A stretch of 64,000 nucleotides of DNA from positions 28,772 to 92,771 of the IMG/VR virus record IMGVR_UViG_3300014502_000001; one strand, 5' to 3'. A program made the position numbers and the translations under genes. Under the pieces are notes generated by a model. That model did no database searches. It saw only the letters and a program-made list of their open reading frames with translations, and was not told the origin of the DNA. The stretch comes from a virus. Below, one piece after another: positions 4,902 through 54,803 of this stretch. Numbering within the stretch: position 1 is the first letter of the stretch; each line of letters begins with the position of its first letter.

Positions 4902-4912
4902 ATATTTCTCCT

Positions 4913-5419
4913 TTATGCCTTTGACGTGTTACGGCCCGGACCCATCTCTGGCTCATTCTCGGAATTCGGCTTGCGGATATAAAGTGTGGAGTCAGCTTGG
5001 ATGCGCATGTTCGATGCAAGCGTCACCAGCATATCCTTGCGGTGACGAAACGCCTCTTTAATAGCGCCTAGCAATCCCACATTTTTACGCGCCACATTCA
5101 CTCTGAGAACTGCCGCGATATAGTCCTCGTCAACCTTGACACTGTTGGCCACCAAATTTTCAGTGACCTTGCCCATCGATGCCAGCTGCTCACGATATTT
5201 CCCATCCAGGGAAGCTGTCGTTGTGTCCAGCTGGAGTTTTGCCTCCGCCAGTGCGGCCTCGGCCATTTCTCCGAGCACCGCATAATAAGCGTAAAGAGAC
5301 GGCTGGTCCCTTAGCTCATTGTTGATCTCCTCCTCTGATAATTTTAATTCGTCCTCATAATCCAGATTGACGGTCTGTTCCTCTGAGATGATGAGAGTCA
5401 GCGGTCCGAGCTTTTCCAT
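4913..5419 (-). CDS. UvsY-like recombination mediator
   Basis: Helical 168-aa protein with QPSLYAYY and EAFRHRKDML.L..N.R pattern; next to SSB and RecA. Confidence 0.7.
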   Translation of the reverse strand: MEKLGPLTLIISEEQTVNLDYEDELKLSEEEINNELRDQPSLYAYYAVLGEMAEAALAEAKLQLDTTTASLDGKYREQLASMGKVTENLVANSVKVDEDYIAAVLRVNVARKNVGLLGAIKEAFRHRKDMLVTLASNMRIQADSTLYIRKPNSENEPEMGPGRNTSKA

Positions 5420-5747: not shown

Positions 5748-5775
5748 ATTATACTGTTCCCCAGCTTTTATTCAA
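5748..5775 (-). promoter_or_regulatory. sigma70-like promoter TTGAAT-16-TATAAT upstream of the recombination genes
   Basis: Minus strand reads TTGAAT aaaagctggggaacag TATAAT, followed by RBS and ATG. Confidence 0.6.
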
Positions 5776-6330
5776 CCGGAATAATGCGCAAAAACATATC
5801 TGAAAACACCTTCACCGCCGCGTCCAACTCGGCCCTATGACTAGCATCATAGCTAACCATTGAAGGGTGGATACAATAGACCAGCCACGCACCCAGCGAC
5901 TCACTCCATTCAGCCGTGCCGTTACGATCCATAATGCTAGCCTTATTGTCACCTGTGACCCAATGAAGCGCTGTTTTGCCAAGCGACAATATCAGCCTTG
6001 GCTTTTGCACCGCTATTTCTTTCCTGAGCCACTGAGCACTGCAAAACGCAGGAACGCGCAGATCAACAATCTTATTATCCTTGGGTCTACATTTCAGAAC
6101 GTTGGTCACCCAGAAAAGATCTCTGCTCAGTCCATGCTTATCCAGAGAGCCCCAGAGCGTCCTACCCGCCTTGCCTACAAATGGAAGACCAGAAGCGTCC
6201 TCATCAGCGCCTGGAGCTTCACCAATAATCATGGTCTGGAATATGCCCGCTGAAAAGGGTGTTGGTCTTTTGCATATCTTGTACGCTGGGCAAAGCTCGC
6301 ACTTCTGAATATCAGCGGCCAGATTTATGG
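5768..6330 (-). other. Fused family-4 (Fe-S) uracil-DNA glycosylase domain of DnaE (boundary approximate)
   Basis: CELC, IIGEAPGADED, PFVGKAG, TNVLKCRP, FC, LGKTA, IHPS, all in frame with the polymerase. Confidence 0.9.
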
Positions 6331-9300
6331 CCTCACGGCGTGTGTCAACATACGGCACTATGCCTCTGTAATCAAGCATTCCCAGATCGCCCTTTTTAAT
6401 GTAATCCATAAATTGGAATCGATCCATGAATATGTTTGACGTTTTGGCTGGCTTATTGGCACGCATGATGATCATACGGCTAGCAATTTCTTCAATCTCG
6501 CCCTTTAGCTCTGAATGATATAGCTTGCCAGTCACCGTTGAATAGGTCAGAGAAGTGTCGTCTCTAAATATGCCATAGCAGCCGCCCAGGTCTGACGCAT
6601 ATCCTTTAACATCCACATCACTGCCCGTGCCGTGCGACTGTTCCACCTTTTGCCTGAATCCAAACTTGATCTCATCATATTTGCCAATGTGATAAGAGTA
6701 TTCCGGTATGGCCTCGTTCTCTCGGCCGGACAGATATGAAAGCTTCTTCACGCGGAAGTGTCTGCTCAGCAGCTCCACAAGAGCCTTATTCTGGGTGAGA
6801 TATTCCTCTGGCATTTCATAGGCTAGCACGTCTGTCTCGACATATGCAGAAGCGTCAATATCCTTATATTGCTTCTCGCTGGTGGGAAACTTTTTCTTAG
6901 TCTCAAGATGCAGAACAAGCTTTTTGCGATCCTCTTCAGATATGATTGAATCCAGAGCCTTGGAGCGCAGCAGGACTCTGATCTTTCCGATGTTGATCAA
7001 GCGCCTAGGAATATTGGCCGCAAAGTCAAATATGTCCTCAAATTTACCGCCGTGCGCCTCCCGCGCCTTTACCAGCTCCAGGGCGGAGTTGGTACTGATA
7101 CCTTTGATGATATCAAAGCCGCCGCGCAGCACGCCTGTATCTTCAATCGTCCATGAATATCCCGAGCAGTTAATGTCGGGAGATTTGATCTTCATGCCAT
7201 GACGCTGAGCATCAGACAACAGTGGCACGATGTCATCGTCCGAGGCTCGTACCAGAGTAGCATGGAAAAACTCTGTGGGATAATATACCTTTAACCACAT
7301 CGTCCAATATCCCAGCATCGTATATTCAACCGAGTGAGACTTATTGAAGCCATATGAATTATGGCTGACAAAATTGTTCGCGATGAAATTTGCAGGCTCT
7401 TCTTCCATCTCCATATCATAGGTCTCTCTCTCGCCTATAAACTTCTTCTCCACAATCTCCTCATCCTGAGTGAAATATCCTACACGATAGCGCCTGAACA
7501 AAGCGCTGTCAGTGTACGCTCTGTGATGCTTTCTGCAAAGAAGCATCGTGTTGTCCTCGGAATTGTCGGTCGTGTCGCCATTGATATGATGCATTTCAGG
7601 AAAACTCCCGGAGCCACAGACCTGGCAGCGACCACCATACTGATCCACAAGATGCTCACGACGCGCTTTTTCCTCATTAGTCGGACCCTCGCCTTTTCTG
7701 AATCTAGGACAAGTCTGGCCAAAGGACCCCGAGCCATATCCTTCTCCGTGTAATTTCTTCGGCAATTTCAGATCGCTGACTCTGATTCTGTCACCGACAC
7801 TGATCTCAGAAACTGTCTTCCACTCTCCACCAACCATAAAATGGTGCTCAGCGCTAGCGCGAACTGTTTTGTTACCGGCTGTCCTTATCAGATATACAGG
7901 CTTCATCCCTGTCTTCCATACTCTCTTTATCGTATTGTAACGGACAAATCCATCATCATGCATCGATAGAATTTTCAAGCCACGACGCTTGAAATTATAA
8001 TTATCCTGATACTTATACGCCTCCTCAATAGTCATCTCGGAATCTTTGTGCTGATTAGAAGCACACCTGTATATTTTTGTATCACCAGTCAGGCATCCGA
8101 AGAATTTCATCAGCGTAAAAACCTTCTGGGCATCAGCCACCGACATGGTTCCAAGCTTTTGAACGCCCGCCAGCCAGTCTTTTCTGAATGTCTCAAACTT
8201 ATCCTGGCCCTCAGATTTAGAAACTACCTTTCTGATGACATCCACCGTGCGCCAGGGGATGCCAGAAAGCTTATTCAGAATCCTCATCATCTGCTCTTGA
8301 TAAAGAACGATGCCATATGTCTCGCCCAGCAGCTCTTTCATCTGAGCATTGATATAAGTTGGCTTTTCCACGCCGTCTTTATAAAGAATGAATTTGCTAG
8401 CCATACCGCTGCGCAGCGTGCCAGGTCTAAATAATGAATTCACCTGCACGAGCTCGTTGAAATTTTTAGGCTTAAAGTTGCGGATATACTGAATCATGCC
8501 CGCTGAGCCAAACTGAAATATGCCCGCCGTATCAGCCTTTGTAAAAGCCTCAAGCACTTTTGGGTCATCCAGCGGCAGCGTTGAATAATCAGCGACCACA
8601 TTGTGACGGCGCTTTATCTCCTCTTTAGCTAGGCGCAGGATATTCAGCGTCTTCAGACCCAGAGCGTCTATCTTCATTACGCCGGCAAATTCAATATCAT
8701 GCTTGTCCCAGTTGACCGCTAAATCGCCAGACTTGGTTTTCACCACAACACATTTGTGGCCTGAATATAAGTCCTCGACATCCACAACCAGACCCGCCGC
8801 GTGAACACCTTTAGTCTTAATGTTACCTTCGATCTTTTTGCAGATCTGGATAACATAGGGATATTTCTTATTAAACTCCTTAGCATTTTCGAACAGTGCC
8901 ACTGTGTCCTCAACAGAAAAGTCAGCTCGCGCATCGCCGCCTGACCTGACCAGAATCTGTTTGGCTATTTGATCCACCTCAACCAGCGGCACCGAGAACA
9001 CTCGTGACACGTCACGCACTACGCCGCGCCCCTTCATCGTGGAAAAGGTGCTCACAGCCGTCACAGAACGCTCACCATATTTGTCACGCATGTGCTGAAT
9101 AACACGGTCGCGCTCAGCATCCTCAAAATCCAAATCGATATCTGGCAGATCGTGACGCTCTGGGGAAATGAAGCGCTCAAACATCAGCCCATACTCGAGT
9201 GGATTCACGTCGGTGATGCCCAGCAAATATGCCACCAGACTTCCACCCACAGAGCCGCGTCCAGGACCCACCATACAGCCATTGTGTTTAGCCCACAGAA

Positions 9301-10315
9301 CCATTTCCTGAACAAGCAGAAAATATTCCGCAAAGCCTAGCTTGATGATCTCTCCCAATTCATATTCACAGCGCTCTACCACTTCCTCTGTACCCAGGGA
9401 CTCAACATTCTCTATGACGTTGAAACACTGCTCACGCAAATATGCGCCAGGATCTTCACGCGCTTCCTCATAGGCTAGCGGCACACTGACCTTGCCCGCC
9501 TTAAATTCCCATGTGCACTTAGCCGCCACCTCATCCCAGATCTCTGCCATCATCAGCTCTGAGTTCTTGAACCCAAGCTCCTGCGCACAGACCACCATTT
9601 CCTCATATGTTTTAAGATGCAGATCAGCCATATCTGCGGGCGCGGGCTCGTTAGGTAGCATCTTCTGGTTGAAGCTCAAGCGCCTTATGACCTCACGCGC
9701 TTGCCAGTCCTCTGGCTTTATATAATGGACATCACCAGTGAATATGATCTTACCACCCATCAGCTCCTGCATATCTCTGAGCAGTTGACTATACTCCCTC
9801 TGGGGAAGATAGTTCTTGAGCATTGGAGCTTCCCAATAAAAGTCGTCACCAAATTTATCCATGATCTGCGGAACCAGGTCACCCATATTTGGATGAGCCA
9901 GCACACCCTCTGTGCAAGCCGTCAAATATACACAGTCCTGTATCTCGCTCAAGAGATATTTCCAGTCAATACGCGGACGGATATAAAAGCCTTCTGTATT
10001 GGCCTTTGTTAAGGCACGCATGATGGAGCTAAAGCCGTTGCTATTTTTGGCCAGCAGCACAGCATGCCAGCGCCGCTTATCGCTGCGGTCAGCCAAATCA
10101 TCAACGACATAAAACTCGCAACCCAAAATGGGATTTGCGCCTGCCTTTTTAACGGTCTGATAAAACTGAATAGCTCCATCCACCGTTCCATGATCAGTTA
10201 AGGCTATGTCCTTAATGCCATATCCCTTGATCACAGCATCAAGCTGATCAATGCGAATGATGGAATCTTGAATCGAGAACTCTGAATGGAAATGGAAAGC
10301 GCTAACAGGCTTCAT
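5768..10315 (-). CDS. dnaE: DNA polymerase III alpha (DnaE, family C) with intein and C-terminal family-4 uracil-DNA glycosylase domain
   Basis: PHP motifs HFHSEFS, TDHG, GCEFY, GDVH; GRGSVGGSLVAY; PDIDLDF; HAAG; KIDALGL; YQEQ; YGFNKSH; C-terminal CELC..GEAPG..FVG..KCRP..HPS. Confidence 0.96.
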   Translation of the reverse strand: MKPVSAFHFHSEFSIQDSIIRIDQLDAVIKGYGIKDIALTDHGTVDGAIQFYQTVKKAGANPILGCEFYVVDDLADRSDKRRWHAVLLAKNSNGFSSIMRALTKANTEGFYIRPRIDWKYLLSEIQDCVYLTACTEGVLAHPNMGDLVPQIMDKFGDDFYWEAPMLKNYLPQREYSQLLRDMQELMGGKIIFTGDVHYIKPEDWQAREVIRRLSFNQKMLPNEPAPADMADLHLKTYEEMVVCAQELGFKNSELMMAEIWDEVAAKCTWEFKAGKVSVPLAYEEAREDPGAYLREQCFNVIENVESLGTEEVVERCEYELGEIIKLGFAEYFLLVQEMVLWAKHNGCMVGPGRGSVGGSLVAYLLGITDVNPLEYGLMFERFISPERHDLPDIDLDFEDAERDRVIQHMRDKYGERSVTAVSTFSTMKGRGVVRDVSRVFSVPLVEVDQIAKQILVRSGGDARADFSVEDTVALFENAKEFNKKYPYVIQICKKIEGNIKTKGVHAAGLVVDVEDLYSGHKCVVVKTKSGDLAVNWDKHDIEFAGVMKIDALGLKTLNILRLAKEEIKRRHNVVADYSTLPLDDPKVLEAFTKADTAGIFQFGSAGMIQYIRNFKPKNFNELVQVNSLFRPGTLRSGMASKFILYKDGVEKPTYINAQMKELLGETYGIVLYQEQMMRILNKLSGIPWRTVDVIRKVVSKSEGQDKFETFRKDWLAGVQKLGTMSVADAQKVFTLMKFFGCLTGDTKIYRCASNQHKDSEMTIEEAYKYQDNYNFKRRGLKILSMHDDGFVRYNTIKRVWKTGMKPVYLIRTAGNKTVRASAEHHFMVGGEWKTVSEISVGDRIRVSDLKLPKKLHGEGYGSGSFGQTCPRFRKGEGPTNEEKARREHLVDQYGGRCQVCGSGSFPEMHHINGDTTDNSEDNTMLLCRKHHRAYTDSALFRRYRVGYFTQDEEIVEKKFIGERETYDMEMEEEPANFIANNFVSHNSYGFNKSHSVEYTMLGYWTMWLKVYYPTEFFHATLVRASDDDIVPLLSDAQRHGMKIKSPDINCSGYSWTIEDTGVLRGGFDIIKGISTNSALELVKAREAHGGKFEDIFDFAANIPRRLINIGKIRVLLRSKALDSIISEEDRKKLVLHLETKKKFPTSEKQYKDIDASAYVETDVLAYEMPEEYLTQNKALVELLSRHFRVKKLSYLSGRENEAIPEYSYHIGKYDEIKFGFRQKVEQSHGTGSDVDVKGYASDLGGCYGIFRDDTSLTYSTVTGKLYHSELKGEIEEIASRMIIMRANKPAKTSNIFMDRFQFMDYIKKGDLGMLDYRGIVPYVDTRREAINLAADIQKCELCPAYKICKRPTPFSAGIFQTMIIGEAPGADEDASGLPFVGKAGRTLWGSLDKHGLSRDLFWVTNVLKCRPKDNKIVDLRVPAFCSAQWLRKEIAVQKPRLILSLGKTALHWVTGDNKASIMDRNGTAEWSESLGAWLVYCIHPSMVSYDASHRAELDAAVKVFSDMFLRIIPVE
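7358..8095 (-). mobile_element. Intein (246 aa) in DnaE carrying an HNH homing endonuclease
   Basis: KFFG|CLTGDT ... ASAEHHF (block B) ... CQVC..HHINGD..N..N..LLCRKHH ... TYDMEM..NFIANNFVSHN|SYGFNKSH; removing it restores KFFGSYGFNKSH. Confidence 0.95.
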
Positions 10316-10318
10316 GCA

Positions 10319-10663
10319 TCACCATACCAATTCAAATTTGATGGGCTCTTCTCTCTTCACGTTTATTTTAGTGATTGACTCAATAGCAGCACAGGCCTGC
10401 CACCAAAGCGCCGTATCACTAATGGGAATCTTAGCGATCCAGAGATCATCATAGTCAGGATCTCTTTCCACGACAATCCTGCCAAATGTCCGACGAGTCT
10501 GCCAATAGGCTAGTCGCACAGTGACGATGCCGTCTCCCACATTTTCAATAAACGCCCTTATCCCTGGCAAGCGCTTAAATTCTGGAGTGGTATCATCGCG
10601 CCACTCAGCAGATTGTCGCACCTCTCTATTCACCAGCCTATTCACTGCCGCTTCTATTTCCAT
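10319..10663 (-). CDS. Hypothetical protein
   Basis: Fills the gap in the operon; no motif recognised. Confidence 0.6.
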   Translation of the reverse strand: MEIEAAVNRLVNREVRQSAEWRDDTTPEFKRLPGIRAFIENVGDGIVTVRLAYWQTRRTFGRIVVERDPDYDDLWIAKIPISDTALWWQACAAIESITKINVKREEPIKFELVW

Positions 10664-10666
10664 AGG

Positions 10667-11029
10667 TCAGAATCTCAACAGAGCTTCAATGGGCCATTCC
10701 GGCTTGACGTCGAAATTGCCGTGCTCTTCAAGCACACATCTGCATGCGTGCCAGAAATTTTCGTCCTCATTTCGAAATACTCTGAGCACCCAAACATTTC
10801 TCGCCTTGCAGTCTTTCTCAAGGAAAGCCATAGCGACGCCCAGCAGAGAACCATTCAGGCGCTTTAGTGTCACAGGAACGTGATTTGGCGCTTTCTCTTC
10901 TGGACAATAAAAACCCAGCATTCCTGGCATCAGCTTGTAACGCTCAGGCAGCTGTTTCCACCACGCAGAGTTCTCCTTTTCTTCTCCGATCCGCTTGAAG
11001 AGTTTCACTTCTTTCATGATCATAATCAT
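10667..11029 (-). CDS. Hypothetical protein
   Basis: Start moved to ATG 11029 behind an AAGGAG RBS. Confidence 0.6.
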   Translation of the reverse strand: MIMIMKEVKLFKRIGEEKENSAWWKQLPERYKLMPGMLGFYCPEEKAPNHVPVTLKRLNGSLLGVAMAFLEKDCKARNVWVLRVFRNEDENFWHACRCVLEEHGNFDVKPEWPIEALLRF

Positions 11030-11036
11030 TTCTCCT

Positions 11037-11237
11037 TTACAGATATCTTCCGTTTTCCCAAAGCACAGCTCCTGTCGTGGAGCTAACAACTCTCACCTTT
11101 TTGACTCTTGCACCGTCCCCAGAATCACGAATAGATATTGCAGCTTCTACTGCAGACTCTAGCGTATCTGTGACCTTAAAGTGAGCCCAGTTGAATTCTC
11201 TATTCCAGACTAATTCCACACAGAACTGATCTCTCAT
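11037..11237 (-). CDS. Hypothetical protein
   Basis: Tightly packed ORF in the operon. Confidence 0.55.
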   Translation of the reverse strand: MRDQFCVELVWNREFNWAHFKVTDTLESAVEAAISIRDSGDGARVKKVRVVSSTTGAVLWENGRYL

Positions 11238-11239
11238 GA

Positions 11240-11977
11240 TCAGCTCTTCACGAAATCTTTGATGCTCTGGACATATTTGCCTTCCACCGTTTCCAGCTTA
11301 GGCTTAAAGCCGCAGCCCTCGGCGTGAGGACAAAAGCCGATATGCTCGCACGGCTTTTTGAACATGGGCCTGAATACGTCACCCATTTTCAGGCACACTT
11401 CCTCAATCATCAGAGCACTGACTTCTCGAATTTCTCCCTGAGCCATCAGACAAAGGCGCGAGGATAAAAATGTCGAGAGATTGCGGAAGTTGATTGCCAT
11501 CGTAATGGGTGAATGGATATTCAGCGGTAAAAGGCCGCGTGCCACTTGCACCTTTTCACCACGCTGAATAAGATGATTGTAGATGTCTTCGACCTTGAGC
11601 ATGGATTGCTCATAGGCCATAGGATCTATAACGTCGGGAGGCGTATGGTAGTCACCCGCCGTAGCAAAGCCTTCCTTGCTCACCACGCGCAAACTCTGGA
11701 TGGAATATGCGGCGGTGCGGTGACGCGTGAGCTGCTGCTGAAAGGCACGACTCACATTTCTGAACAGCCAGTTGGTCAGGATGAATTCCTGCACGCCGCC
11801 CGTCAGCGGCTCGGCAGCCATGTACTCGACAAAATCATTTTCCAGCTGCCGACTGACATGGCCCATAAACAGCGGATCATCAGAAACTTGACCGTGCATG
11901 TTCTTAAAAGCGAACAGCATTGTCCTCAAAGGCTCCGGCGTAAAATTGAAAAGAATGACCTGTGCGGTCTTACTCAT
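11240..11977 (-). CDS. thyX: Flavin-dependent thymidylate synthase ThyX-like protein
   Basis: VSRAFQQQLTRHRTAAYSIQSLR (RHRx7S signature), ARGLLP, NFRNL..F...R, AQGEIR. Confidence 0.88.
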   Translation of the reverse strand: MSKTAQVILFNFTPEPLRTMLFAFKNMHGQVSDDPLFMGHVSRQLENDFVEYMAAEPLTGGVQEFILTNWLFRNVSRAFQQQLTRHRTAAYSIQSLRVVSKEGFATAGDYHTPPDVIDPMAYEQSMLKVEDIYNHLIQRGEKVQVARGLLPLNIHSPITMAINFRNLSTFLSSRLCLMAQGEIREVSALMIEEVCLKMGDVFRPMFKKPCEHIGFCPHAEGCGFKPKLETVEGKYVQSIKDFVKS

Positions 11978-11996
11978 GGTGTTCTCCTATGGTCAT

Positions 11997-12025
11997 ATTA
12001 TAGCCCAAACGAAAGACAAAGTAAA
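11997..12025 (-). promoter_or_regulatory. sigma70-like promoter TTTACT-17-TATAAT upstream of thyX
   Basis: Minus strand TTTACT ttgtctttcgtttgggc TATAAT; same hexamers as the promoter at 21541-21569. Confidence 0.7.
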
Positions 12026-12036
12026 TGGGAAACATC

Positions 12037-12981
12037 CTATCGTTCCCACGACAATTTGACGGCTGCAGTATAAGGTTTTCCCCTTGAAGCCAGTCGCAAT
12101 ATCTTGTCGTCGCCAGGCAGCGGCTTGCGCGTCCGCTGAACAAGACCTATGCGCGGCTGCTTAGCGTCACAGCCTTTACAGACAGATATGTCACGCTGGC
12201 CCCAATAGAGCTTGCGCCGCGCCGCCGCGAATATGGGTGAGTCCCAGATCTTTTGTACGCCCTCTTTGGCCACGTTGCCTATTTTTAGCACACCTCTGAA
12301 ATCATTGCAACAAATGGCCACATTTCCGTCCCAGCGTATAGACAGCTCTCTGAAAGGAAGCACACACCGCTTGCCAGCCATTTTTTCATTGGGTGGAGCT
12401 CCGCAGCCGCAATGGTTGGACAGATATGAATGGGTGCCGCGCTTAGCCTTAGTGATATCGTCGATGATGACAAGAGTGTGATCATTCGGCCTGCGCCGCT
12501 TATGAGGATTAGCTATTTTTTCATCAGGATATAAACGCACATCAATAGCTGTCTCGCCAGCCAGAACCTGATCCAGGACATCAGCCACAGTCGTGCTGCC
12601 GGCATGACGATAGTCGCTCATGCCAATCGTGTTCAGGCCTGCTTGGAATATAGCGTTGATCTGCGCAGCGGCGTCCTTCACAAAGCCGTGACCGTTGGTC
12701 AGCATGAGCATGCTGGCCTTGGGCAACGCCGCCCTGAATATGGAGACGATCTCGTCCTTGTCAGGATTCAGGCTAGGCTCGCCGTGCATATTAAATTCAA
12801 TCCTGCTATTCCAGCCCGCCGCCGCTATGCTCTCAGCAATTTTCTGGGCAGTGGCTGGAGTCATATATTTGAAATCAGGACGCGTGCCTCTGATTCCATT
12901 TATGCCACAGTAGCTACACCGCCGCGAGCAGCCCTCTGTCAGCTCAACCTGGATGCTCCAAGGCGCTTTACTAGCCTTCAT
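12037..12981 (-). CDS. Radical SAM enzyme with SPASM/twitch domain
   Basis: CSRRCSYC (CxxxCxxC), HGEP, LTNG, C..PF..L.IRWDG.V.ICC.D..GN..IW..CKGC. Confidence 0.92.
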   Translation of the reverse strand: MKASKAPWSIQVELTEGCSRRCSYCGINGIRGTRPDFKYMTPATAQKIAESIAAAGWNSRIEFNMHGEPSLNPDKDEIVSIFRAALPKASMLMLTNGHGFVKDAAAQINAIFQAGLNTIGMSDYRHAGSTTVADVLDQVLAGETAIDVRLYPDEKIANPHKRRRPNDHTLVIIDDITKAKRGTHSYLSNHCGCGAPPNEKMAGKRCVLPFRELSIRWDGNVAICCNDFRGVLKIGNVAKEGVQKIWDSPIFAAARRKLYWGQRDISVCKGCDAKQPRIGLVQRTRKPLPGDDKILRLASRGKPYTAAVKLSWER

Positions 12982-13319
12982 GCGAGAGCCTTTTTTTTGA
13001 GCTCCTGCTGCTCGTAAAGCTTGGCAACGACTCTGGCTGCAGCACCCTGGCCCAGATCCCGATCATATCCCCACTCCTCAAACTGATCAGGATTTTCGAG
13101 ATTGACTTTCATGACTCGTCCGTACAGATAATCGAATTTTTTGCTTGGCCCCATGCCAGGATAATCAGGCAGAGTTTGTTTCCCTTCCAGCAGCTCAGCG
13201 GCCTGTTCCCTGGTCATATCCCCAGGACGAGCCTGCAGAAAGCCCATCCCCTGGACATGCGATGCGTTATACAGTGCGGCCAGAACATCAGCGGGCAGAA
13301 GTCCTTTTGTCGAAATCAT
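12978..13319 (-). CDS. Hypothetical phage protein (VLAALYN..GMG..FDYLYGRVMKV..YDRD.G.G type)
   Basis: Start reassigned to ATG 13319 (ATGA overlap, GGAG RBS). Confidence 0.7.
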   Translation of the reverse strand: MISTKGLLPADVLAALYNASHVQGMGFLQARPGDMTREQAAELLEGKQTLPDYPGMGPSKKFDYLYGRVMKVNLENPDQFEEWGYDRDLGQGAAARVVAKLYEQQELKKKALA

Positions 13320-14293
13320 GATTGGTTCTCCTTGGATTTTTGCTGTTCCATTTTCTTCAGCCAGGTAGGAACATATATGACCTTTTTTGTGGCCAGGTCG
13401 ATCATAGGTCGCTGGCTCATTGTGGCCCAGCGATCCGACTTCATGCGCATTTCCTGCATGTAGTTGCAAACGTCTTTTGCAAAATTGCCCGTCTCTTTGT
13501 GAAAGGTATTCCACATCAGATCCAGCCACCGCGTGCCACCCGCGAAATATGGCGACCGCCCTAGCTGCTCAATTTCACAATGGCGCGTAAAAGCGCAGCG
13601 GCTGTTTGTGTACCACTTAGGCGAGAAAAATGCATTGACGTCGATATCACGCATGCCAAAGCCTAGACCAGGATTATACCAGTGATAGGCGCAGCCCGCG
13701 TAAAGAACATATCCTCGCACGTTGGCAATTTTCTTAGGATTCTTTTTGTGCAGGAACTCTTCCATCATAGATATGGCTTTCTTCCGAATGCGCGTCAGAT
13801 TCTTTTTGTCCTGATGCCAGTCGTAATTGCGATACGTGCTGAGTGTTTCAGCATCATATATTTTCTCTTCCAGCTGTGGATTGCCCAGCTTCACGATAAA
13901 CTCTTTCAGCTTAACTGGATTACCGGCAGGGTGTTTGCCATATCTGACAATGGTGGGGAATCCAGGCTTGACCGGGATGTTGGGATATTTCACCACATAG
14001 TCCACGTCATATAGCAGCGCTAGCTGGCGCATCTGATCCACCATTTCATAGCCCTTACGCGGGTGGATATAGTACCACAGAAAAACAAACTTGCGTGCCA
14101 TGCTAGTCAGCAGATCGAACATGGGCTTGCCATGCTCGTCCTGCGCATAAACGTGATCCTCGCCATCAATGTCGTTGACGACATAAACCTTAGACTCTGG
14201 GAAATGATCCTGAAATTTGACCGCCATCGCGATCGTCACATCCAGAATCTTTTCCTCGTCCTCATCAGGATTAACCACAATCACATCATTCAT
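13316..14293 (-). CDS. Two-domain protein; C-terminal part may be a Pol-beta-superfamily nucleotidyltransferase
   Basis: YAGCAYH...GMRDIDVNAFF resembles the hG[GS]x9-13DhDh NTase motif; later candidate third acidic residue in WLDLM. Confidence 0.5.
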   Translation of the reverse strand: MNDVIVVNPDEDEEKILDVTIAMAVKFQDHFPESKVYVVNDIDGEDHVYAQDEHGKPMFDLLTSMARKFVFLWYYIHPRKGYEMVDQMRQLALLYDVDYVVKYPNIPVKPGFPTIVRYGKHPAGNPVKLKEFIVKLGNPQLEEKIYDAETLSTYRNYDWHQDKKNLTRIRKKAISMMEEFLHKKNPKKIANVRGYVLYAGCAYHWYNPGLGFGMRDIDVNAFFSPKWYTNSRCAFTRHCEIEQLGRSPYFAGGTRWLDLMWNTFHKETGNFAKDVCNYMQEMRMKSDRWATMSQRPMIDLATKKVIYVPTWLKKMEQQKSKENQS

Positions 14294-15519
14294 TTGTACT
14301 TCTCCACGACCTTAGCAGATTTTTCCCAATACATTTTTTCAAAGTCCGCTGTATCAAAACCAAACAGCAGATATATTGAAAGTAGGAACTTGAAGATATC
14401 CGTCAGCTCCTCAAGGATCCTTTCCCTGTCCAGCTTTACCGCACCAGGCTTGCTGCCGAACTTCCAGTTGATGGTGTCCAGGAAGTCATTGCTCTCGCTG
14501 AATAGATGGAGAACGTAGTTTTTAGCCGCCCGTTGGACGGCCTCTAAATCTGGCGCATAGCTAACAAACTTCCTGTTGAACGCTTTCTGATCGCTGAATA
14601 TGCTCTCCATAAAAAATTTATTGGAGCTGCGCTGAATAACTGCCTTCATCGTGATGTCAGGATTCCACTCGCCATAGCGCCCGAGGAACATCACGTTGGG
14701 TGGAGCTATGTTTTCATGGCTGCGCAGAATCCGAGCTCCAGGCATAATAATGGAATCCTGAAAAGGCAAAGAACCTTCAATGGCGATGACGTCTCCTTGT
14801 AGCACCTTGGAACGCCGCACTCGATCAAAGCCAAATTTCTCCTCAGGGAAATATACCATGGACTCTTCGGGCAGCTCCGGATAGCCACATCCTAGCCACT
14901 GGTCATCTGACATCGTGCCCGTATAAAGTGGAAACGACATCAGCACCTTATGCTCGGCGTGTGGGCCTTCATAAATCTTCCAGAATACATTCGCAGGAAT
15001 CGTACTCACCAGATGGCTGTATTCCAGCGCCTTATCATTATCCAGAACAATCTGCTTTTCAGATATGGAGACAACCTTTCTGTTAATCACTCTTTTCTCA
15101 GCCAGCCTATAGTGAAGCAAATCCAGCAGTGTTTTGGCACTAAGATGATATGTGTGCATAAGGCCGCGATCACCGCTCACGTATGGGCCGGCAAGGATGT
15201 CCTCAGCAGGGAATAAAGACGGTGGCCGCTCATGGCCGCTGAGCTTTTTCTTCATCAGGTCACGCTTTACATCATCAGGTGGTTCACCCTGATTATATTT
15301 TCCGTCCTTGAAATATCCGATGGTGATGTCCAACTGCGACGAGCTTATATCCAGGTCAGCCAGGAACTCGTCGCACGCCTTACACTTAGGCAGGATAAGG
15401 CTGTGTTGAAAGCTAGCCACGTCCGACTGCGCGCCCGCCGCTGGAGCAATTCTGGTGTACTCTGGATTGTAAAACTGAAAAATTTTAGCACTCAACCCAT
15501 TACCAAGTATAATCTTCAT
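14290..15519 (-). CDS. FAD-dependent oxidoreductase (UDP-Gal mutase/protoporphyrinogen-oxidase-like) fused to an all-alpha dUTPase/dCTPase (MazG-like) domain
   Basis: MKIILGNGLS (Rossmann), LVSTIP, FLGRYGEW; C-terminal Q..FN...SESNDFLDTINWK...ILEELTDIFKF..Y..K. Start at ATG 15519 (TGATG overlap, AGGAG RBS). Confidence 0.78.
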   Translation of the reverse strand: MKIILGNGLSAKIFQFYNPEYTRIAPAAGAQSDVASFQHSLILPKCKACDEFLADLDISSSQLDITIGYFKDGKYNQGEPPDDVKRDLMKKKLSGHERPPSLFPAEDILAGPYVSGDRGLMHTYHLSAKTLLDLLHYRLAEKRVINRKVVSISEKQIVLDNDKALEYSHLVSTIPANVFWKIYEGPHAEHKVLMSFPLYTGTMSDDQWLGCGYPELPEESMVYFPEEKFGFDRVRRSKVLQGDVIAIEGSLPFQDSIIMPGARILRSHENIAPPNVMFLGRYGEWNPDITMKAVIQRSSNKFFMESIFSDQKAFNRKFVSYAPDLEAVQRAAKNYVLHLFSESNDFLDTINWKFGSKPGAVKLDRERILEELTDIFKFLLSIYLLFGFDTADFEKMYWEKSAKVVEKYK

Positions 15520-16064
15520 CACACTTCTCCTTGCAAAAGAATCGCTGGAGAAAAATACTCTCCGACTATAATCCATCTGAAATATTCCTTCCAGCGTTTT
15601 CTATTTGAATTAACTTTAATATTACAACCAGTACAAAGCTCTATCAAATTATTAGACCAATTATGCTTTTTATTGTAATCAATATGATGAACAGGATGTC
15701 TTCTTTTTCCCTCTTTAGTGTTACAAAGCTGACATATATGACCGTCACGATCACGAATTTGCTCTCGCAATTCAGGCGTCCATCTTGTACCATATTTTTC
15801 AGAGCTCTTGCCGCCCAGCCAGCTAGGATGATTCACAGGATCTACAAAACGTCGTATCTGAGCTAAACTCTGTTTTGCAATTGTTTCTTCACTATGCTGC
15901 TTACCGAGATTACCGTGTGCATTCACATTACCAAGTTTTGCAAGACTCATCTTTGCTCGTGTATTCTTGCTGTGTTTTCTGCCATAGAAAGGATTATTTG
16001 CACCAGCAGTAATCAGACTTATTTTAATCTTGGCCTCTTTGCTGTGGTGACTTCCCTTTCTCAC
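15519..16064 (-). CDS. Free-standing HNH homing endonuclease with NUMOD3-like repeats
   Basis: GRKHS..TRAKMS repeats; IRDRDGHICQLC, VHHIDYNK..N..NLI.LC..C; AT-rich. Confidence 0.9.
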   Translation of the reverse strand: MRKGSHHSKEAKIKISLITAGANNPFYGRKHSKNTRAKMSLAKLGNVNAHGNLGKQHSEETIAKQSLAQIRRFVDPVNHPSWLGGKSSEKYGTRWTPELREQIRDRDGHICQLCNTKEGKRRHPVHHIDYNKKHNWSNNLIELCTGCNIKVNSNRKRWKEYFRWIIVGEYFSPAILLQGEV

Positions 16065-16402
16065 AGCTTCTCCTTTTCTATTTGCGCATCGATGTCCAGC
16101 GCATAATATAGAACCGCAAAATTGATGATATCAATAACTGAGTCGCGCACATCAGCACCGACATCACGCTTGCAATTACTCAGAGATATAAGGCGACTCG
16201 TCTTTTTGATGATCTCGTAAAGCGCCCTATGCGCTGGAATATCCATGTTCAGCTTCAGCAGCTTGCATATTTCAGCGTCACGCTTGAACGAGTCCAAGAA
16301 ATCGGAGTTGATGGCATTATAGCGCCCGCCTTTATCCACCAGCATATCTGCGCAGTTTTTGAGCAGCCCGTCAGCGATGGGTTTGAATTCCTGATACTTC
16401 AT
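16061..16402 (-). CDS. Nucleotide-modification-associated (Nmad1/DUF1599-like) all-alpha protein
   Basis: K...Y.....D.L.SF.....K..RL......DSVIDIINFAVL pattern. Confidence 0.6.
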   Translation of the reverse strand: MKYQEFKPIADGLLKNCADMLVDKGGRYNAINSDFLDSFKRDAEICKLLKLNMDIPAHRALYEIIKKTSRLISLSNCKRDVGADVRDSVIDIINFAVLYYALDIDAQIEKEKL

Positions 16403-17772
16403 TATTTCACCTCTGGATCTGGAGTGGCTTCAACATCTGCGGCGATTGCGTCCTCGTCAGAAACGCGCTCGCCGATGATATGGCACAATTCCCTTTCAAT
16501 GATAACATGCGCAGTACGACGATCCTTAGCCTTGCGCCCACCGGCCAAGAATATTCTTAGCTTTTTTACCTTGGCCTCTTCGATATCCTGATTCAACGTC
16601 AGGATCATATCTGCGTCACGCATCGGCTCAAGGGAATCCGCTGAATCATCCAGATCAACAGTGTGCTTTTTCTTTGCACCACGAGTAGCTTGATGGAGCA
16701 GCCAGACGGGAACGTGATAGCGCTGAGCCAAGGAGATCAGCTCTTTGCATATTTGACCAAGCACTTCATAGCGCTCTCCTGGTCGCGACACCCATCTTCC
16801 ATTAGTGATCATCAGCGTCAGATAATCAACAATGACCAAAGCTGGAATAAACTTTTCCCTTGCCCGCATGCGAGCTAAGTGGTTTTCAATCGCCAGCGTG
16901 TTACACGTCAGCGCTGGGAAATGCTTAATGACCAAGCGCCCGTTAGCCGCGTCGGCACGATGGGCCTCAACTCTTTCGCGCACTTCATCCTCGTGCGCCC
17001 TAAGCTGGTCTCTGGGGATACCAGATATGAGACAATCATAATTGTCGGTGATGTCGGTTGGTGTGCCTTCCATAATATAGTGGGCTACATTTTTCTGATT
17101 CCATACGGCGTTGGCACCCAGGTTCACCGACAATGTGGTCTTACCTTTTTTAGCAAAGCCAAGGATAACGCCCAATTCACCTGGAGCTAGCCCGCCGCCT
17201 AATATGTAATCCAAATGCTGAATGCCTGTGCTGATAGCCAACTGGGCACGCGTGATGCCGCTGCGCCTGTCCTCTAGGCGCTTTTCCAAGTCCTCATAAT
17301 ATAGCGTCCCAAGGTCTTTACTGTTTTCTCCGATGGCCAGGGCCACGCGTACCTTTTCCAGGATATCGTTGTAATTCTTTTTCTTGCGAATGATGTCAGC
17401 GCTTTCAGCCATAGCCGCTTTGATGCCCTGATACCGCGCAAATTCTACCGCCTTATCTTTAACATATGAAAAGTCCGCAGAGTCCACCATGCTGGTCACT
17501 TCCTGATAGACGGTCAGGTACTCGTCCACAGGGAGCTTTTTCTTACTCTCCAGAAATGTTTCAAACTCCGTCGTCAGCTCATCCAAGTCTGGCAAGCGAT
17601 TATATTTACCATGGAAGGCATAGACGATCACCATGATGTCAGACACCGCTGGGTTGTCAAACATTTCTGGAGTTATAGACTCCGCCGTATCAAGAAATTC
17701 CTCATCAGTGGAAAGGATCCACGCCGCTATTTTTTTCTGGATAGGATCTGAAAAAGGAAACTGTTCAGACAT
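16402..17772 (-). CDS. Replicative DnaB-like (SF4) helicase
   Basis: ISTGI..LD..LGGGL.PGEL, GFAKKGKT (Walker A), VIVDYL, HQATR, ADS....RDADMI. Confidence 0.92.
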   Translation of the reverse strand: MSEQFPFSDPIQKKIAAWILSTDEEFLDTAESITPEMFDNPAVSDIMVIVYAFHGKYNRLPDLDELTTEFETFLESKKKLPVDEYLTVYQEVTSMVDSADFSYVKDKAVEFARYQGIKAAMAESADIIRKKKNYNDILEKVRVALAIGENSKDLGTLYYEDLEKRLEDRRSGITRAQLAISTGIQHLDYILGGGLAPGELGVILGFAKKGKTTLSVNLGANAVWNQKNVAHYIMEGTPTDITDNYDCLISGIPRDQLRAHEDEVRERVEAHRADAANGRLVIKHFPALTCNTLAIENHLARMRAREKFIPALVIVDYLTLMITNGRWVSRPGERYEVLGQICKELISLAQRYHVPVWLLHQATRGAKKKHTVDLDDSADSLEPMRDADMILTLNQDIEEAKVKKLRIFLAGGRKAKDRRTAHVIIERELCHIIGERVSDEDAIAADVEATPDPEVK

Positions 17773-54802: not shown

Positions 54803-54803
54803 A

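What the first reader, a model, noticed from the sequence alone, without database searches (positions are those of the whole stretch)
11240..16402. Candidate new nucleotide/base-modification pathway: Nmad1-like, flavoprotein::dNTPase, NTase-like, radical SAM/SPASM, ThyX-like
Seen: these genes are clustered between the helicase and the polymerase, mostly overlapping. Established: phage hypermodification systems combine a thymidylate-synthase homolog, a dNTP pyrophosphatase that removes the canonical nucleotide, and tailoring enzymes. Radical SAM and flavin enzymes act in thymidine hypermodification in Pseudomonas phages M6 and PaMx11, and Nmad1-type domains are defined by this context. Here the synthase is ThyX-type rather than ThyA-type, and no 5hmdU kinase or amino-acid:DNA transferase is recognisable in the window. 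Inference: a different route to a modified pyrimidine, possibly made at nucleotide level and incorporated by the phage DnaE.
Basis: partly seen in the sequence, partly recalled or inferred. Interest (0 to 1): 0.8.

Follow-up and report, generated by a model that had tools for sequence, protein, structure and literature searches.

The report
Phage ThyX-flavoprotein nucleotide-tailoring gene cluster
An uncultured 93-kb phage carries, between its helicase and polymerase genes, a version of a widespread but untested gene module (an altered ThyX enzyme plus a sugar-mutase-like flavoprotein) that probably makes a non-standard thymidine-type DNA base, here with three extra enzymes.

Summary
Window 11240-16402 (minus strand) encodes a translationally coupled chain: Nmad1/DUF1599-like protein, an inserted HNH homing endonuclease, a flavoprotein fused to a MazG/dimeric-dUTPase-type pyrophosphatase, a Pol-beta-type nucleotidyltransferase-like protein, an orphan 113-aa ORF and a radical SAM/SPASM enzyme. 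A ThyX homolog follows, with its own promoter-like site.

The conserved core is the flavoprotein plus ThyX. All 24 distinct flavoprotein loci with enough downstream DNA have a ThyX gene within 6 kb. The flavoprotein's best structural match is UDP-galactopyranose mutase (Z 21). The linked ThyX proteins mostly lack the canonical HxSxxEH histidines.

The radical SAM family otherwise sits in 5-hmdU-kinase / glycosyltransferase / ThyA-like clusters. The complete genome has no 5-hmdU kinase, amino-acid:DNA transferase, ThyA, TET/JBP or thymidylate kinase.

The same core module occurs in cultured PB1-like Pseudomonas phages. Their DNA carries sugar-like thymidine derivatives of unknown genetic origin.

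This scan had already flagged the core module in at least 15 other genomes. New here are the MazG fusion, the NTase-like protein and the radical SAM link.

Best reading (about 0.5): a pool-level route to a 5-substituted deoxyuridine. The main rival (about 0.3) is plain dTMP supply. The chemistry is unproven.

The parts
16061..16402 (-). Nmad1 (DUF1599)-like small helical protein, 113 aa. Its start overlaps the DnaB stop.
   Evidence: Pfam DUF1599 E 0.029, below cut-off. Thirteen homologs sit between DnaB and the flavoprotein gene in related loci. In more distant modules the homologous ORFs pass the DUF1599 cut-off at 27.5-31.9 bits. hhalign of A5 against those three proteins gives 94.8%, E 5e-8.
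15519..16064 (-). HNH/NUMOD3 homing endonuclease, 181 aa. A mobile insert, not part of the pathway.
   Evidence: NUMOD3 E 1e-19 and PHROG HNH families. Absent from all related loci. Paralogous fragments lie elsewhere in the genome.
14590..15519 (-). N-terminal domain (about residues 1-310) of the fusion protein: a UGM-like FAD-type Rossmann flavoprotein.
   Evidence: GxGxx[AG] and an FLGRYAQW motif are conserved (A1). AF2 model pLDDT is about 85-90 over most of the domain. The top 17 VIA rows are UDP-galactopyranose mutases at Z 19.4-21.1, with protoporphyrinogen oxidase next at 18.9 or below. No Pfam or NCBIfam match.
14290..14589 (-). C-terminal domain of the fusion: a compact all-alpha NTP pyrophosphatase of the dUTPase_2/MazG type.
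   Evidence: Pfam dUTPase_2 at 28.3 bits against a cut-off of 22.9; PHROG 173. E342, E370, E371 and D374 are invariant. PDB sequence hits to dimeric dUTPases and DCTPP1 are weak, E 0.07-0.3. Fused in 24 of 28 distinct flavoprotein homologs.
13316..14293 (-). 325-aa protein with an N-terminal alpha/beta domain of unclear kinship and a C-terminal Pol-beta-type nucleotidyltransferase-like domain.
   Evidence: Only 13 representatives among 1.84 billion proteins. The motif G200-[CGS]...D216-x-D218...D258 is invariant. AF2 pLDDT 79. NTase-fold matches at Z 5-6.4. The Atlas gives NTP_transf_2 leads. The only syntenic relative is in L004.
12978..13319 (-). Orphan 113-aa ORF whose ATG overlaps the stop of the 325-aa gene. 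Function unknown.
   Evidence: No homolog in any fetched locus. No Pfam or NCBIfam match. No usable Atlas hit.
12037..12981 (-). Radical SAM / SPASM enzyme, 314 aa, with C18xxxC22xxC25.
   Evidence: Pfam Radical_SAM and SPASM. The family has 311 or more homologs and 198 confirmed IMG/VR loci. In the 80 loci kept, the neighbours are a 5-hmdU DNA kinase (62), a TAGT-like glycosyltransferase (53) and a ThyA-like gene (62). In a quick tree it lies basal to that clade.
11997..12047 (-). Intergenic hairpin and a promoter-like site (TTTACT-17-TATAAT) ahead of ThyX.
   Evidence: Consensus scan and sequence. These are pattern matches only.
11240..11977 (-). ThyX-family protein, 245 aa, of the flavoprotein-linked subfamily that lacks the canonical histidines.
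   Evidence: Pfam Thy1 at 100 bits. TIGR02170 at 65 bits, below its 87.9 cut-off. RHRx7S, R147 and R174 are kept, but HxSxxEH reads LGGVQEF and SxRY reads SLRV. At most 31% identical to ThyX of cultured phages.

Best explanation
The cluster is one lineage's version of a widespread, phage-only, biochemically untested nucleotide-tailoring module. Its invariant core is a ThyX-family enzyme with an altered cofactor pocket and a UGM-like flavoprotein.

Proposed working, with every catalytic step inferred:
1. The MazG/dUTPase-type domain fused to the flavoprotein turns a deoxypyrimidine triphosphate (dUTP, possibly also dTTP) into the monophosphate.
2. The ThyX-like enzyme and the flavoprotein install or remodel a carbon substituent at C5 of that deoxyuridylate by flavin-N5 chemistry. 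The product is a thymidine substitute rather than, or as well as, dTMP.
3. Host kinases and the phage DnaE put it into DNA.
4. The lineage-specific enzymes finish the side chain. Here these are the NTase-like protein and the radical SAM/SPASM enzyme. In relatives they are GT2/TAGT-like glycosyltransferases, short-chain dehydrogenases and methyltransferases.

Shown here: the gene content, the domain folds and the co-occurrence. Inferred: the substrate, the product and the order of steps.
For: 1. Core pair. Among 28 distinct flavoprotein homologs, all 24 with at least 1.5 kb of downstream DNA have a ThyX gene within 6 kb, mostly within 1 kb. In the reverse test, 16 of 18 loci fetched by ThyX-clade motifs have the flavoprotein upstream.
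2. ThyX is atypical. It scores below the TIGR02170 equivalog cut-off. All 38 flavoprotein-linked or cultured-phage ThyX compared deviate from the HTSPLEH...SQRY pattern of the one canonical reference, phiCP39-O.
3. A pool-level signature. A MazG-type domain is fused in 24 of 28 homologs. Thymidylate-kinase-like genes, a standalone dUTPase_2 and HD or HAD nucleotidases lie next to the pair in relatives.
4. Tailoring-type variable neighbours. These are GT2/TAGT-like genes in six loci, short-chain dehydrogenases, methyltransferases and radical SAM enzymes in four lineages, plus Nmad1.
5. The window's radical SAM family is otherwise found with the 5-hmdU DNA kinase, a TAGT-like glycosyltransferase and a ThyA-like gene in 53-62 of 80 loci.
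6. Cultured relatives. PB1-like gp63 and Luteibacter phage Pluto gp780, both just upstream of ThyX, are homologs of the flavoprotein. jackhmmer from gp63 recovers all 47 family members, and a profile built without them scores 38.8 and 34.8 bits. Virion DNA of Pbunavirus F8 and 14-1 carries sugar-like thymidine derivatives of 362 and 390 Da whose genes are unknown (PMC12191111).
7. Precedents. SP-15 has two Thy1-family genes and a ribose-labelled C5 side chain made as a triphosphate (PMC5977210). Phage RL38JI encodes a true UGM for DNA glycosylation, and ThyA homologs have switched to flavin chemistry (PMC13326640).
8. No other known route to a 5-hydroxymethyl pyrimidine is encoded: no ThyA, TET/JBP, 5-hmdU kinase or ADDT-family transferase.
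Against: - No modified base has been measured for this phage, and no enzyme of the module has been assayed.
- The ThyX keeps RHRx7S, the S-x-R arginine, R147 and R174, so ordinary dUMP methylation is possible.
- The genes sit in the replication module beside a UDG-bearing polymerase, which also fits uracil avoidance.
- The genome has no thymidylate or dNMP kinase of its own.
- In Pbunavirus only about a quarter of thymidines are modified, in a TG context. That calls for a DNA-level, sequence-specific step and is not explained by pool enzymes alone. An earlier check in this scan priced that gene-to-mark link at 33/100.
- The NTase-like protein with a radical SAM enzyme is seen in only two genomes, and the two radical SAM proteins are 31% identical.
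- The window's radical SAM enzyme is basal to, not nested in, the kinase-linked clade.
Confidence: 0.5

Rival explanations
1. Ordinary thymidylate supply and uracil hygiene. The MazG-type domain is a dUTPase, ThyX makes dTMP, and the flavoprotein is a redox or structural helper of this ThyX subfamily. The NTase-like, radical SAM and Nmad1 genes are unrelated accessory genes that happen to sit in the early replication operon.
For: ThyX keeps RHRx7S, R147 and R174. The Cys-rich tail first thought to be special also occurs in ThyX of cultured phages. UDG is fused to DnaE here, and UDG or HhH-GPD genes lie near the module in relatives, which fits uracil exclusion. The module travels with the replication genes. 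An earlier check in this scan found that a plain dTMP reading fits.
Against: It does not explain four things. First, this ThyX subfamily always needs a UGM-like flavoprotein. Second, the folate-pocket histidines are lost. Third, a relative carries a full standalone dUTPase_2 as well as the fused domain (L106). Fourth, glycosyltransferase, dehydrogenase, methyltransferase and radical SAM genes keep appearing inside the module.
Confidence: 0.3
2. The flavoprotein is an NDP-sugar pyranose/furanose mutase. It supplies an unusual sugar donor to phage glycosyltransferases, for DNA or virion glycosylation. ThyX lies next to it only through shared ancestry of the operon.
For: UDP-galactopyranose mutases are the best fold match at Z 21.1. 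GT2/TAGT-like and short-chain dehydrogenase genes lie next to the pair in several loci. This genome has a GT9/GT2/methyltransferase cassette at 53475-59265. Phage RL38JI uses a UGM for DNA glycosylation.
Against: There is no sequence-level UGM membership (no Pfam or NCBIfam match; about 11-12% identity). Fusion to a nucleoside-triphosphate pyrophosphatase and the 24-of-24 link to ThyX are not expected for a sugar mutase. Many loci have no glycosyltransferase nearby.
Confidence: 0.1
3. The NTase-like protein and the radical SAM enzyme act on something other than phage DNA bases, for example by making or destroying a signalling or chain-terminating nucleotide in a phage-host conflict.
For: Pol-beta NTase folds include the CD-NTases. 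There are weak NCBIfam similarities to many radical SAM families, including viperin at E 0.003. The pair is lineage-specific.
Against: The radical SAM family is tied to 5-hmdU-kinase clusters in most of 80 loci. The two genes are translationally coupled between the flavoprotein and ThyX genes.
Confidence: 0.07

Closest known systems
ThyX plus flavoprotein module of PB1-like Pseudomonas phages (Pbunavirus; for example vB_PaeM_USP_2 gp63 and gp57) and Luteibacter phage Pluto, together with the TG-context thymidine hypermodification of F8 and 14-1 (Yee et al. 2025, PMC12191111)
   Same: The flavoprotein is homologous (jackhmmer; profile scores of 38.8 and 34.8 bits). ThyX also lacks the canonical histidines. 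The position is the same, next to DnaE.
   Different: In those phages the flavoprotein is not fused to a MazG domain. A polynucleotide-kinase/HAD-type gene follows ThyX. There is no NTase-like or radical SAM gene. No experiment links their genes to the observed mark.
Thymidine hypermodification pathways of M6, ViI, PaMx11, SP10 and PhiW-14 (Lee et al. 2018, 2021; PMC5889632, PMC8989533)
   Same: The logic is similar: a thymidylate-synthase homolog, a nucleotide-pool phosphohydrolase and variable tailoring enzymes that include radical SAM and flavin enzymes. The radical SAM family here co-occurs elsewhere with the 5-hmdU DNA kinase.
   Different: There is no ThyA-type hydroxymethylase, 5-hmdU DNA kinase or ADDT-family transferase in the whole genome. 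The radical SAM enzyme is a SPASM type, not like M6 gp53. The flavoprotein is UGM-like, not like PaMx11 gp47.
Bacillus phage SP-15, with 5-(4',5'-dihydroxypentyl)uracil (Kropinski et al. 2018, PMC5977210)
   Same: A phage with Thy1-family genes and a sugar-derived C5 side chain, reported as made at the triphosphate level.
   Different: No sequence comparison with SP-15 was made here. The role of its Thy1 genes is only a hypothesis of that paper.
UDP-galactopyranose mutase, including the phage RL38JI enzyme used for DNA glycosylation (Lee et al. 2026, PMC13326640)
   Same: It is the best fold match for the flavoprotein domain (Z 21.1, 302 residues aligned, rmsd 3.4).
   Different: About 11-12% identity and no Pfam GLF match. 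The window protein is fused to an NTP pyrophosphatase and tied to ThyX rather than to a glycosyltransferase.
Canonical flavin-dependent thymidylate synthase ThyX (T. maritima TM0449; Pfam Thy1; TIGR02170)
   Same: Thy1 domain at 100 bits. RHRx7S, R147 and R174 are kept.
   Different: It scores below the TIGR02170 cut-off. The HxSxxEH histidines and the Tyr of SxRY are replaced.

Membership tests
ThyX (Pfam Thy1 PF02511) | Match to the Thy1 profile above the gathering score | tested here: met
   100 bits against a cut-off of 24.8, residues 9-195
ThyX equivalog (TIGR02170, true thymidylate synthase) | Score above the curated equivalog cut-off | tested here: not met
   65 bits against a cut-off of 87.9
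ThyX equivalog (TIGR02170, true thymidylate synthase) | RHRx7S motif and the dUMP-binding arginines | tested here: met
   RHRTAAYSIQS. R147 and R174 align with T. maritima ThyX
ThyX equivalog (TIGR02170, true thymidylate synthase) | Histidines of the HxSxxEH motif and the Tyr of SxRY | tested here: not met
   The window reads LGGVQEF and SLRV, against HTSPLEH and SQRY in phiCP39-O ThyX. The role of these residues in folate and dUMP contact is recalled from the literature, not tested here.
ThyX equivalog (TIGR02170, true thymidylate synthase) | dUMP to dTMP activity with methylene-tetrahydrofolate, FAD and NADPH | not testable with these tools
   Needs an enzyme assay or thyA complementation
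All-alpha NTP pyrophosphatase (dUTPase_2 / MazG) | Profile match above cut-off | tested here: met
   dUTPase_2 at 28.3 bits against 22.9, profile positions 3-89 of 162; PHROG 173
All-alpha NTP pyrophosphatase (dUTPase_2 / MazG) | ExxE ... ExxD metal-binding carboxylates | tested here: inconclusive
   E342, E370, E371 and D374 are invariant, but the second acidic residue of the first motif varies
UDP-galactopyranose mutase | UGM fold with a GxGxxG FAD site | tested here: met
   The top 17 VIA rows are UGMs at Z 19.4-21.1; GxGxx[AG] is invariant
UDP-galactopyranose mutase | Sequence-level membership (Pfam GLF / NAD_binding_8) | tested here: not met
   No Pfam or NCBIfam match to the N-terminal 310 residues
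UDP-galactopyranose mutase | Mutase activity and UDP-sugar-binding residues | not tested
   No residue-level structural alignment was available; needs an assay
Pol-beta nucleotidyltransferase superfamily | hG[GS] x9-13 Dh[DE]h plus a third carboxylate | tested here: met
   G200-[CGS]201, D216-I-D218 and D258 are invariant across 10 sequences
Pol-beta nucleotidyltransferase superfamily | NTase fold | tested here: inconclusive
   TENT5B Z 6.4, CCA-adding enzyme 5.8, ANT(4') 5.7 over residues 158-319. These Z values are middling. Foldseek E 0.011.
Radical SAM / SPASM | CxxxCxxC cluster site and the SPASM Cys-rich domain | tested here: met
   C18, C22 and C25; Radical_SAM 40.9 bits and SPASM 48.4 bits
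M6 gp53-type glycinyl-thymine isomerase | Sequence similarity to M6 gp53 (like spore-photoproduct lyase) | tested here: not met
   tblastn against 50,697 phage records gives a single 22% hit, to an unnamed faecal phage. gp53 is described as SPL-like in PMC8989533.
Nmad1 (DUF1599 PF07659) | Profile match | tested here: inconclusive
   Its own score is 15.2 bits, below the cut-off of 25. Its family profile matches cut-off-passing DUF1599 proteins of related modules at hhalign 94.8%, E 5e-8.
5-hmdU-based thymidine hypermodification system (M6 / ViI / PaMx11 type) | ThyA-type dUMP hydroxymethylase, or TET/JBP | tested here: not met
   PF00303 and PF12851 give no match in the complete genome
5-hmdU-based thymidine hypermodification system (M6 / ViI / PaMx11 type) | 5-hmdU DNA kinase | tested here: not met
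   PF18723 and a custom profile give no match
5-hmdU-based thymidine hypermodification system (M6 / ViI / PaMx11 type) | Amino-acid:DNA transferase (aGPT-Pplase) | tested here: inconclusive
   PF18724 (ADDT) gives no match. I could not name the other clades' Pfam models, so they were not searched.

The most novel reading that the evidence does not exclude
The UGM-like flavoprotein and the ThyX that lacks the canonical histidines together catalyse a flavin-N5-mediated reductive alkylation. A sugar C1 is captured as a flavin iminium, as in UGM. It is then attacked by C5 of dUMP, as in ThyX, and reduced. This gives a C-C-linked 5-(polyhydroxyalkyl)-deoxyuridylate in the nucleotide pool.

That reading would explain three things:
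- why the folate-pocket histidines are lost;
- why the side chain of SP-15 is labelled from ribose;
- by my own arithmetic, why the F8 nucleoside of 362 Da equals deoxyuridine plus C5H10O4, and the 14-1 nucleoside of 390 Da equals deoxyuridine plus C6H10O5.

In this phage the NTase-like protein and the radical SAM/SPASM enzyme would then remodel that polyol chain.
Probability: 0.17. Interest if true: 0.9.

Novelty: new variant of a known kind. Interest (0 to 1): 0.62.

Why it matters
Phage DNA hypermodifications defeat restriction and CRISPR defences and have supplied useful enzymes. All characterised thymidine pathways start from a ThyA-type hydroxymethylase or a TET/JBP dioxygenase.

A ThyX-and-flavoprotein route would be a second, independent entry point. 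It is the leading candidate for two unsolved cases: the sugar-like thymidines of therapeutic PB1-like Pseudomonas phages, and the pentyl-uracil of SP-15.

This window adds three things:
- The fusion to a nucleoside-triphosphate pyrophosphatase argues that the flavoprotein works in the nucleotide pool.
- It links the module to a radical SAM family shared with 5-hmdU-kinase clusters.
- It contains a very rare NTase-like protein with no precedent in base modification.

Tried and rejected
Contexts therefore came from the search for related loci only, and the contexts of most NTase-like homologs (P0139-P0144) remain unknown.
- A single-protein scan of viral contigs with the fusion protein found nothing. 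The alignment-based scan was needed.
- No INPHARED phage matches the 6-kb DNA, the fusion protein or the 325-aa protein.
- I first thought the invariant cysteines of this ThyX (C176, C210, C216, C222) marked a special metal site. The control alignment showed the same cysteines in ThyX of cultured phages, so I dropped the idea as a distinguishing feature.
- hhalign of the Nmad1-like family against the MazG-type domain gave no relation.
- hhalign of all cluster proteins against the 21 commonest neighbour families of the radical SAM loci gave nothing above 20%.
- Custom profiles of 5-hmdU kinase, TAGT-like, ThyA-like and HD proteins found nothing in the genome.
- The radical SAM enzymes of L007 and L009 are related to each other (E 3e-10). 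Their kinship to the window's family could not be established.
- The quick tree places the window's radical SAM enzyme basal to the kinase-linked clade, not inside it, so no transfer can be claimed. The careful tree did not finish.
- NCBIfam gave no specific family for any cluster protein.
- The Atlas search of the orphan 113-aa ORF gave nothing usable.
- The alignment scan for the 325-aa family in viral contigs returned only the L004 contig.
- Complex prediction on the flavoprotein domain with ThyX returned no verdict.
- PF18725 was a wrong guess at a transferase model and turned out to be a HEPN family.
- The PDB sequence search with the C-terminal domain gave only weak dUTPase and DCTPP1 hits, plus spurious repeat-protein hits.
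- Literature searches for SPASM, TAGT or ThyX combined with hypermodification terms found no paper describing this module.

Full report
**Setting.** The window is bases 28772-92771 of a complete 92,771-bp IMG/VR phage genome with direct terminal repeats. Almost all genes are on the minus strand. The finding lies in the replication module:
- DnaB helicase at 16402-17772;
- a DnaE polymerase at 5768-10315 that carries an intein and a C-terminal family-4-like UDG domain;
- farther along, a gp32-like protein, RecA, a flap endonuclease and SbcCD.

**Observation.** Between DnaB and DnaE I find seven ORFs, listed here in transcription order.

1. **16061-16402, 113 aa.** No significant Pfam match of its own (DUF1599/Nmad1 at E 0.029).
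2. **15519-16064.** An HNH/NUMOD3 homing endonuclease.
3. **14290-15519, 409 aa.** Homologs start at MKIIL rather than at the upstream ATG. The C-terminal 100 residues match dUTPase_2 above the Pfam cut-off. The N-terminus opens with GxGxxA.
4. **13316-14293, 325 aa.** No family match.
5. **12978-13319, 113 aa.** An orphan ORF.
6. **12037-12981.** A radical SAM/SPASM enzyme.
7. **11240-11977.** A ThyX homolog.

From DnaB to the radical SAM gene every junction is a 1- or 4-nt overlap. ThyX follows a 59-nt gap with a weak hairpin and a TTTACT-17-TATAAT site. It omitted the homing endonuclease, which no relative has, and the orphan ORF.

**The flavoprotein::pyrophosphatase fusion.**
- A search of 5.8 billion proteins found only 16 relatives. 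All are full-length fusions of 410-436 aa.
- The AlphaFold model is confident over residues 1-260.
- Foldseek's best hits are UDP-galactopyranose mutases (E 2.7e-10).
- On re-alignment the top 17 rows are all UGMs, at Z 19.4-21.1. Protoporphyrinogen oxidases follow at 18.9 or below, and amine oxidases at about 16.
- A conserved FLGRYAQW segment resembles the UGM GRxxxYxY motif. That comparison rests on my recollection.
- Identity to UGMs is only about 11-12%, and no Pfam or NCBIfam model matches the N-domain. I therefore call it UGM-like, not a UGM.
- The C-terminal domain keeps E342, E370, E371 and D374. It weakly resembles dimeric dUTPases and DCTPP1.

**The 325-aa protein.**
- It is extremely rare: 13 representatives among 1.84 billion proteins, none distant.
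- The alignment shows an invariant G200-[CGS], then 13 residues, then D216-x-D218, and D258. This is the Pol-beta nucleotidyltransferase signature.
- The model (pLDDT 79) has a C-terminal domain matching TENT5B, CCA-adding enzyme, ANT(4') and CD-NTases at Z 5-6.4. The Atlas gives leads to NTP_transf_2 families.
- These Z values are middling. The motif is the stronger argument.
- The N-terminal alpha/beta domain has no convincing relative.

**The Nmad1-like protein.**
- Thirteen homologs sit in the same position in related loci.
- Only 2 of 9 reach even a weak DUF1599 match on their own.
- In more distant modules (L134, L136, L138), the small ORFs picked up by my profile of this family pass the DUF1599 gathering score, at 27.5-31.9 bits.
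- A profile-profile comparison of the two groups gives 94.8% probability, E 5e-8, over 83 columns.
- The label is therefore supported by transitive homology.

**The conserved core.** Alignment-based scans gave 7 viral and 33 metagenomic loci with a relative of the fusion.
- After removing near-duplicates, 28 distinct near-complete flavoprotein homologs remain.
- 24 of them have at least 1.5 kb of downstream DNA, and all 24 have a ThyX-family gene within 6 kb, mostly within 1 kb.
- 24 of the 28 carry the pyrophosphatase domain.
- The reverse test used two motifs of this ThyX clade and returned 18 viral loci. Sixteen have the flavoprotein upstream, sometimes as two tandem paralogs and often without the fused domain. 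Of the other two, one contig starts at ThyX and one shows none.
- The pair therefore persists across phages with DnaE or PolA replicases and at 25-55% protein identity. That is far beyond chance and beyond simple shared descent of one operon.

**Is the ThyX ordinary?**
- It matches Pfam Thy1 strongly but falls below the TIGR02170 equivalog cut-off, 65 against 87.9 bits.
- It keeps RHRx7S, the arginine of S-x-R, R147 and R174.
- I aligned 39 sequences with Clostridium phage phiCP39-O ThyX as a canonical reference (HTSPLEH ... RHRTFKFNVQSQRY). Every flavoprotein-linked ThyX deviates. The window reads LGGVQEF and SLRV. This agrees with another first-stage note on the same gene.
- From memory, the motif histidine stacks on the folate in T. 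maritima ThyX and the tyrosine contacts dUMP. If that is right, the carbon-donor pocket is altered.
- One idea of mine failed its control. The four invariant cysteines also occur in ThyX of cultured phages, so they are not distinctive.

**Variable neighbours of the core pair** (Pfam):

| Neighbour | Loci |
|---|---|
| GT2 or TAGT-like glycosyltransferase | L005, L097, L114, L126, L131, L134 |
| Short-chain dehydrogenase | L134 (two), L135, with homologs in L133 and L140 |
| Methyltransferase | L005, L091, L128 |
| Radical SAM enzyme | window, L004, L007, L009 |
| Thymidylate-kinase-like kinase | L009, L107-L111 |
| HD or HAD/NT5C nucleotidase | L004, L010, L096 |
| Full standalone dUTPase_2 | L106 |
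| HhH-GPD or UDG glycosylase | L007, L008, L118, L107 |
| ThyA-like gene | L007, L008, L116 |

This mix of pool enzymes and tailoring enzymes around a fixed core is the pattern of known hypermodification clusters (PMC8989533).

**The radical SAM enzyme.**
- Its family is large: 311 or more homologs and 198 confirmed IMG/VR loci.
- In the 80 loci kept, the neighbours are a 5-hmdU DNA kinase (62 loci), a TAGT-like glycosyltransferase directly upstream (53), a ThyA-like gene directly downstream (62), PolA (63) and an HD phosphohydrolase (40).
- None of those loci has the flavoprotein, this ThyX or the 325-aa protein.
- The family is thus a marker of a 5-hmdU-type cluster that is itself uncharacterised.
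- The window enzyme is 45-50% identical to those members. In a quick tree it sits basal to them, with L004's copy, rather than nested.
- It is not of the M6 gp53 kind.

**What the genome lacks.** Pfam-model searches of the complete genome find none of the following:
- 5-hmdU DNA kinase;
- ADDT-family transferase;
- ThyA;
- TET/JBP;
- thymidylate kinase.

Custom profiles agree. If a 5-substituted pyrimidine is made, it is made by none of the known routes, and phosphorylation would depend on the host.

**Link to cultured phages and to earlier notes of this scan.** The scan had already flagged a ThyX-plus-flavoprotein module in at least 15 other genomes, including PB1-like Pseudomonas phages. A later check priced the bold reading for that family at 33/100.

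I tested the link myself.
- In vB_PaeM_USP_2 and Luteibacter phage Pluto, a 322-333-aa hypothetical protein lies just upstream of ThyX and near DnaE.
- Single-sequence hhalign was weak.
- jackhmmer from the PB1-like protein recovered exactly the 47 flavoprotein homologs, including the window's.
- A profile built without the two cultured-phage proteins scores them at 38.8 and 34.8 bits.

Yee et al. report that F8 and 14-1 virion DNA carries thymidine derivatives of 362 and 390 Da. These replace about a quarter of thymidines in a TG context, are read as sugar-alcohol and aldopentose adducts, and have no assigned genes (PMC12191111).

Two further papers give precedents.
- Kropinski et al. note two Thy1-family genes in SP-15. 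They cite work showing that its dihydroxypentyl-uracil is labelled from ribose and made as a triphosphate (PMC5977210).
- Lee et al. 2026 show a phage UGM serving DNA glycosylation, and ThyA homologs that have switched to flavin chemistry (PMC13326640).

**Interpretation.** I judge it most likely (about 0.5) that the cluster makes a 5-substituted deoxyuridine, starting in the nucleotide pool.
- The fused pyrophosphatase provides the monophosphate.
- ThyX and the flavoprotein act at C5.
- The NTase-like protein and the radical SAM enzyme finish the side chain.

The fusion is the new argument this window brings for pool-level action of the flavoprotein.

The main rival (about 0.3) is ordinary dTMP supply with a helper flavoprotein. 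It fits the retained catalytic arginines, the replication-module setting and the UDG. It also avoids the difficulty that pool enzymes cannot explain a TG-specific mark.

Two lesser rivals remain: a sugar-mutase role for the flavoprotein (about 0.1), and a conflict-related role for the NTase-like and radical SAM pair (about 0.07).

The boldest reading the data allow is a flavin-mediated coupling of a sugar C1 to uracil C5, at about 0.17. The match to the published masses is my own arithmetic and is not evidence of mechanism.

**Verdict.**
- This is a new variant of a known kind, phage pyrimidine hypermodification, built from enzymes that no published pathway uses.
- The scan has seen the core module before on other DNA.
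- All chemistry remains to be shown.

Noticed in passing
window 5768-10315 (-): The DnaE polymerase (1515 aa) carries an intein (Intein_splicing, residues 760-986) and a C-terminal UDG-superfamily domain (residues 1362-1493). UDG also appears as a separate gene next to the ThyX module in L107, and it weakly matches the DnaE of L008.
   Followed up: partly
L011-L090 (IMG/VR loci): A widespread, apparently uncharacterised cluster type: 5-hmdU DNA kinase, TAGT-like glycosyltransferase, radical SAM/SPASM and a ThyA-like gene in fixed order, usually with PolA and an HD phosphohydrolase. There are 198 confirmed loci, and no cultured phage in INPHARED has the radical SAM enzyme.
   Followed up: partly
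window 29405-30553 (-): A phiEco32-like COOH-NH2 ligase type 2 (amidoligase), E 8.7e-15. Amidoligase domains are mentioned near thymidine-hypermodification genes in PMC8989533. The surrounding ORFs have no Pfam match.
   Followed up: no
window 53475-59265 (-): A glycosyltransferase cassette between the capsid and neck genes: GT9, a 901-aa GT9-GT2 multidomain protein, a class I methyltransferase, an HNH insert (54233-54958) and a GT2. Whether it glycosylates DNA or virion proteins is open. The methyltransferase is only weakly similar (E 6.7e-5) to one next to the flavoprotein in L091.
   Followed up: partly
window 15519-16064, window 54309-54464, and G000:C1:3323-3504: There are three related HNH endonuclease copies or fragments in one genome (81% and 67% DNA identity over about 160-180 nt). 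This suggests active homing within the phage.
   Followed up: no
window 10319-11089 (-): Two adjacent small ORFs (114 and 140 aa) between ThyX and DnaE are weak paralogs of each other (E about 1e-4). They have no homolog in related loci, where an HD-domain gene sits at this position instead.
   Followed up: no
L007:12281-13174 and L118:2535-3386: In distant versions of the module, an HhH-GPD glycosylase-like domain follows ThyX. In L007 it is fused to a partial ThyA-like domain.
   Followed up: no
L133, L134, L135: Two tandem flavoprotein paralogs (about 300 and 320-336 aa, no MazG domain), followed by short-chain dehydrogenases, a 339-345-aa unknown protein (homologs in L138) and, in L134, a GT2, all upstream of ThyX. 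This is a more elaborate version of the module.
   Followed up: no
window 3741-4982 (+): A long plus-strand ORF (413 aa) lies antisense to the gp32-like gene at 3726-4901. The same antisense frame stays open in relatives (L004, L010). This is probably a codon-usage artefact, but it is conserved.
   Followed up: no
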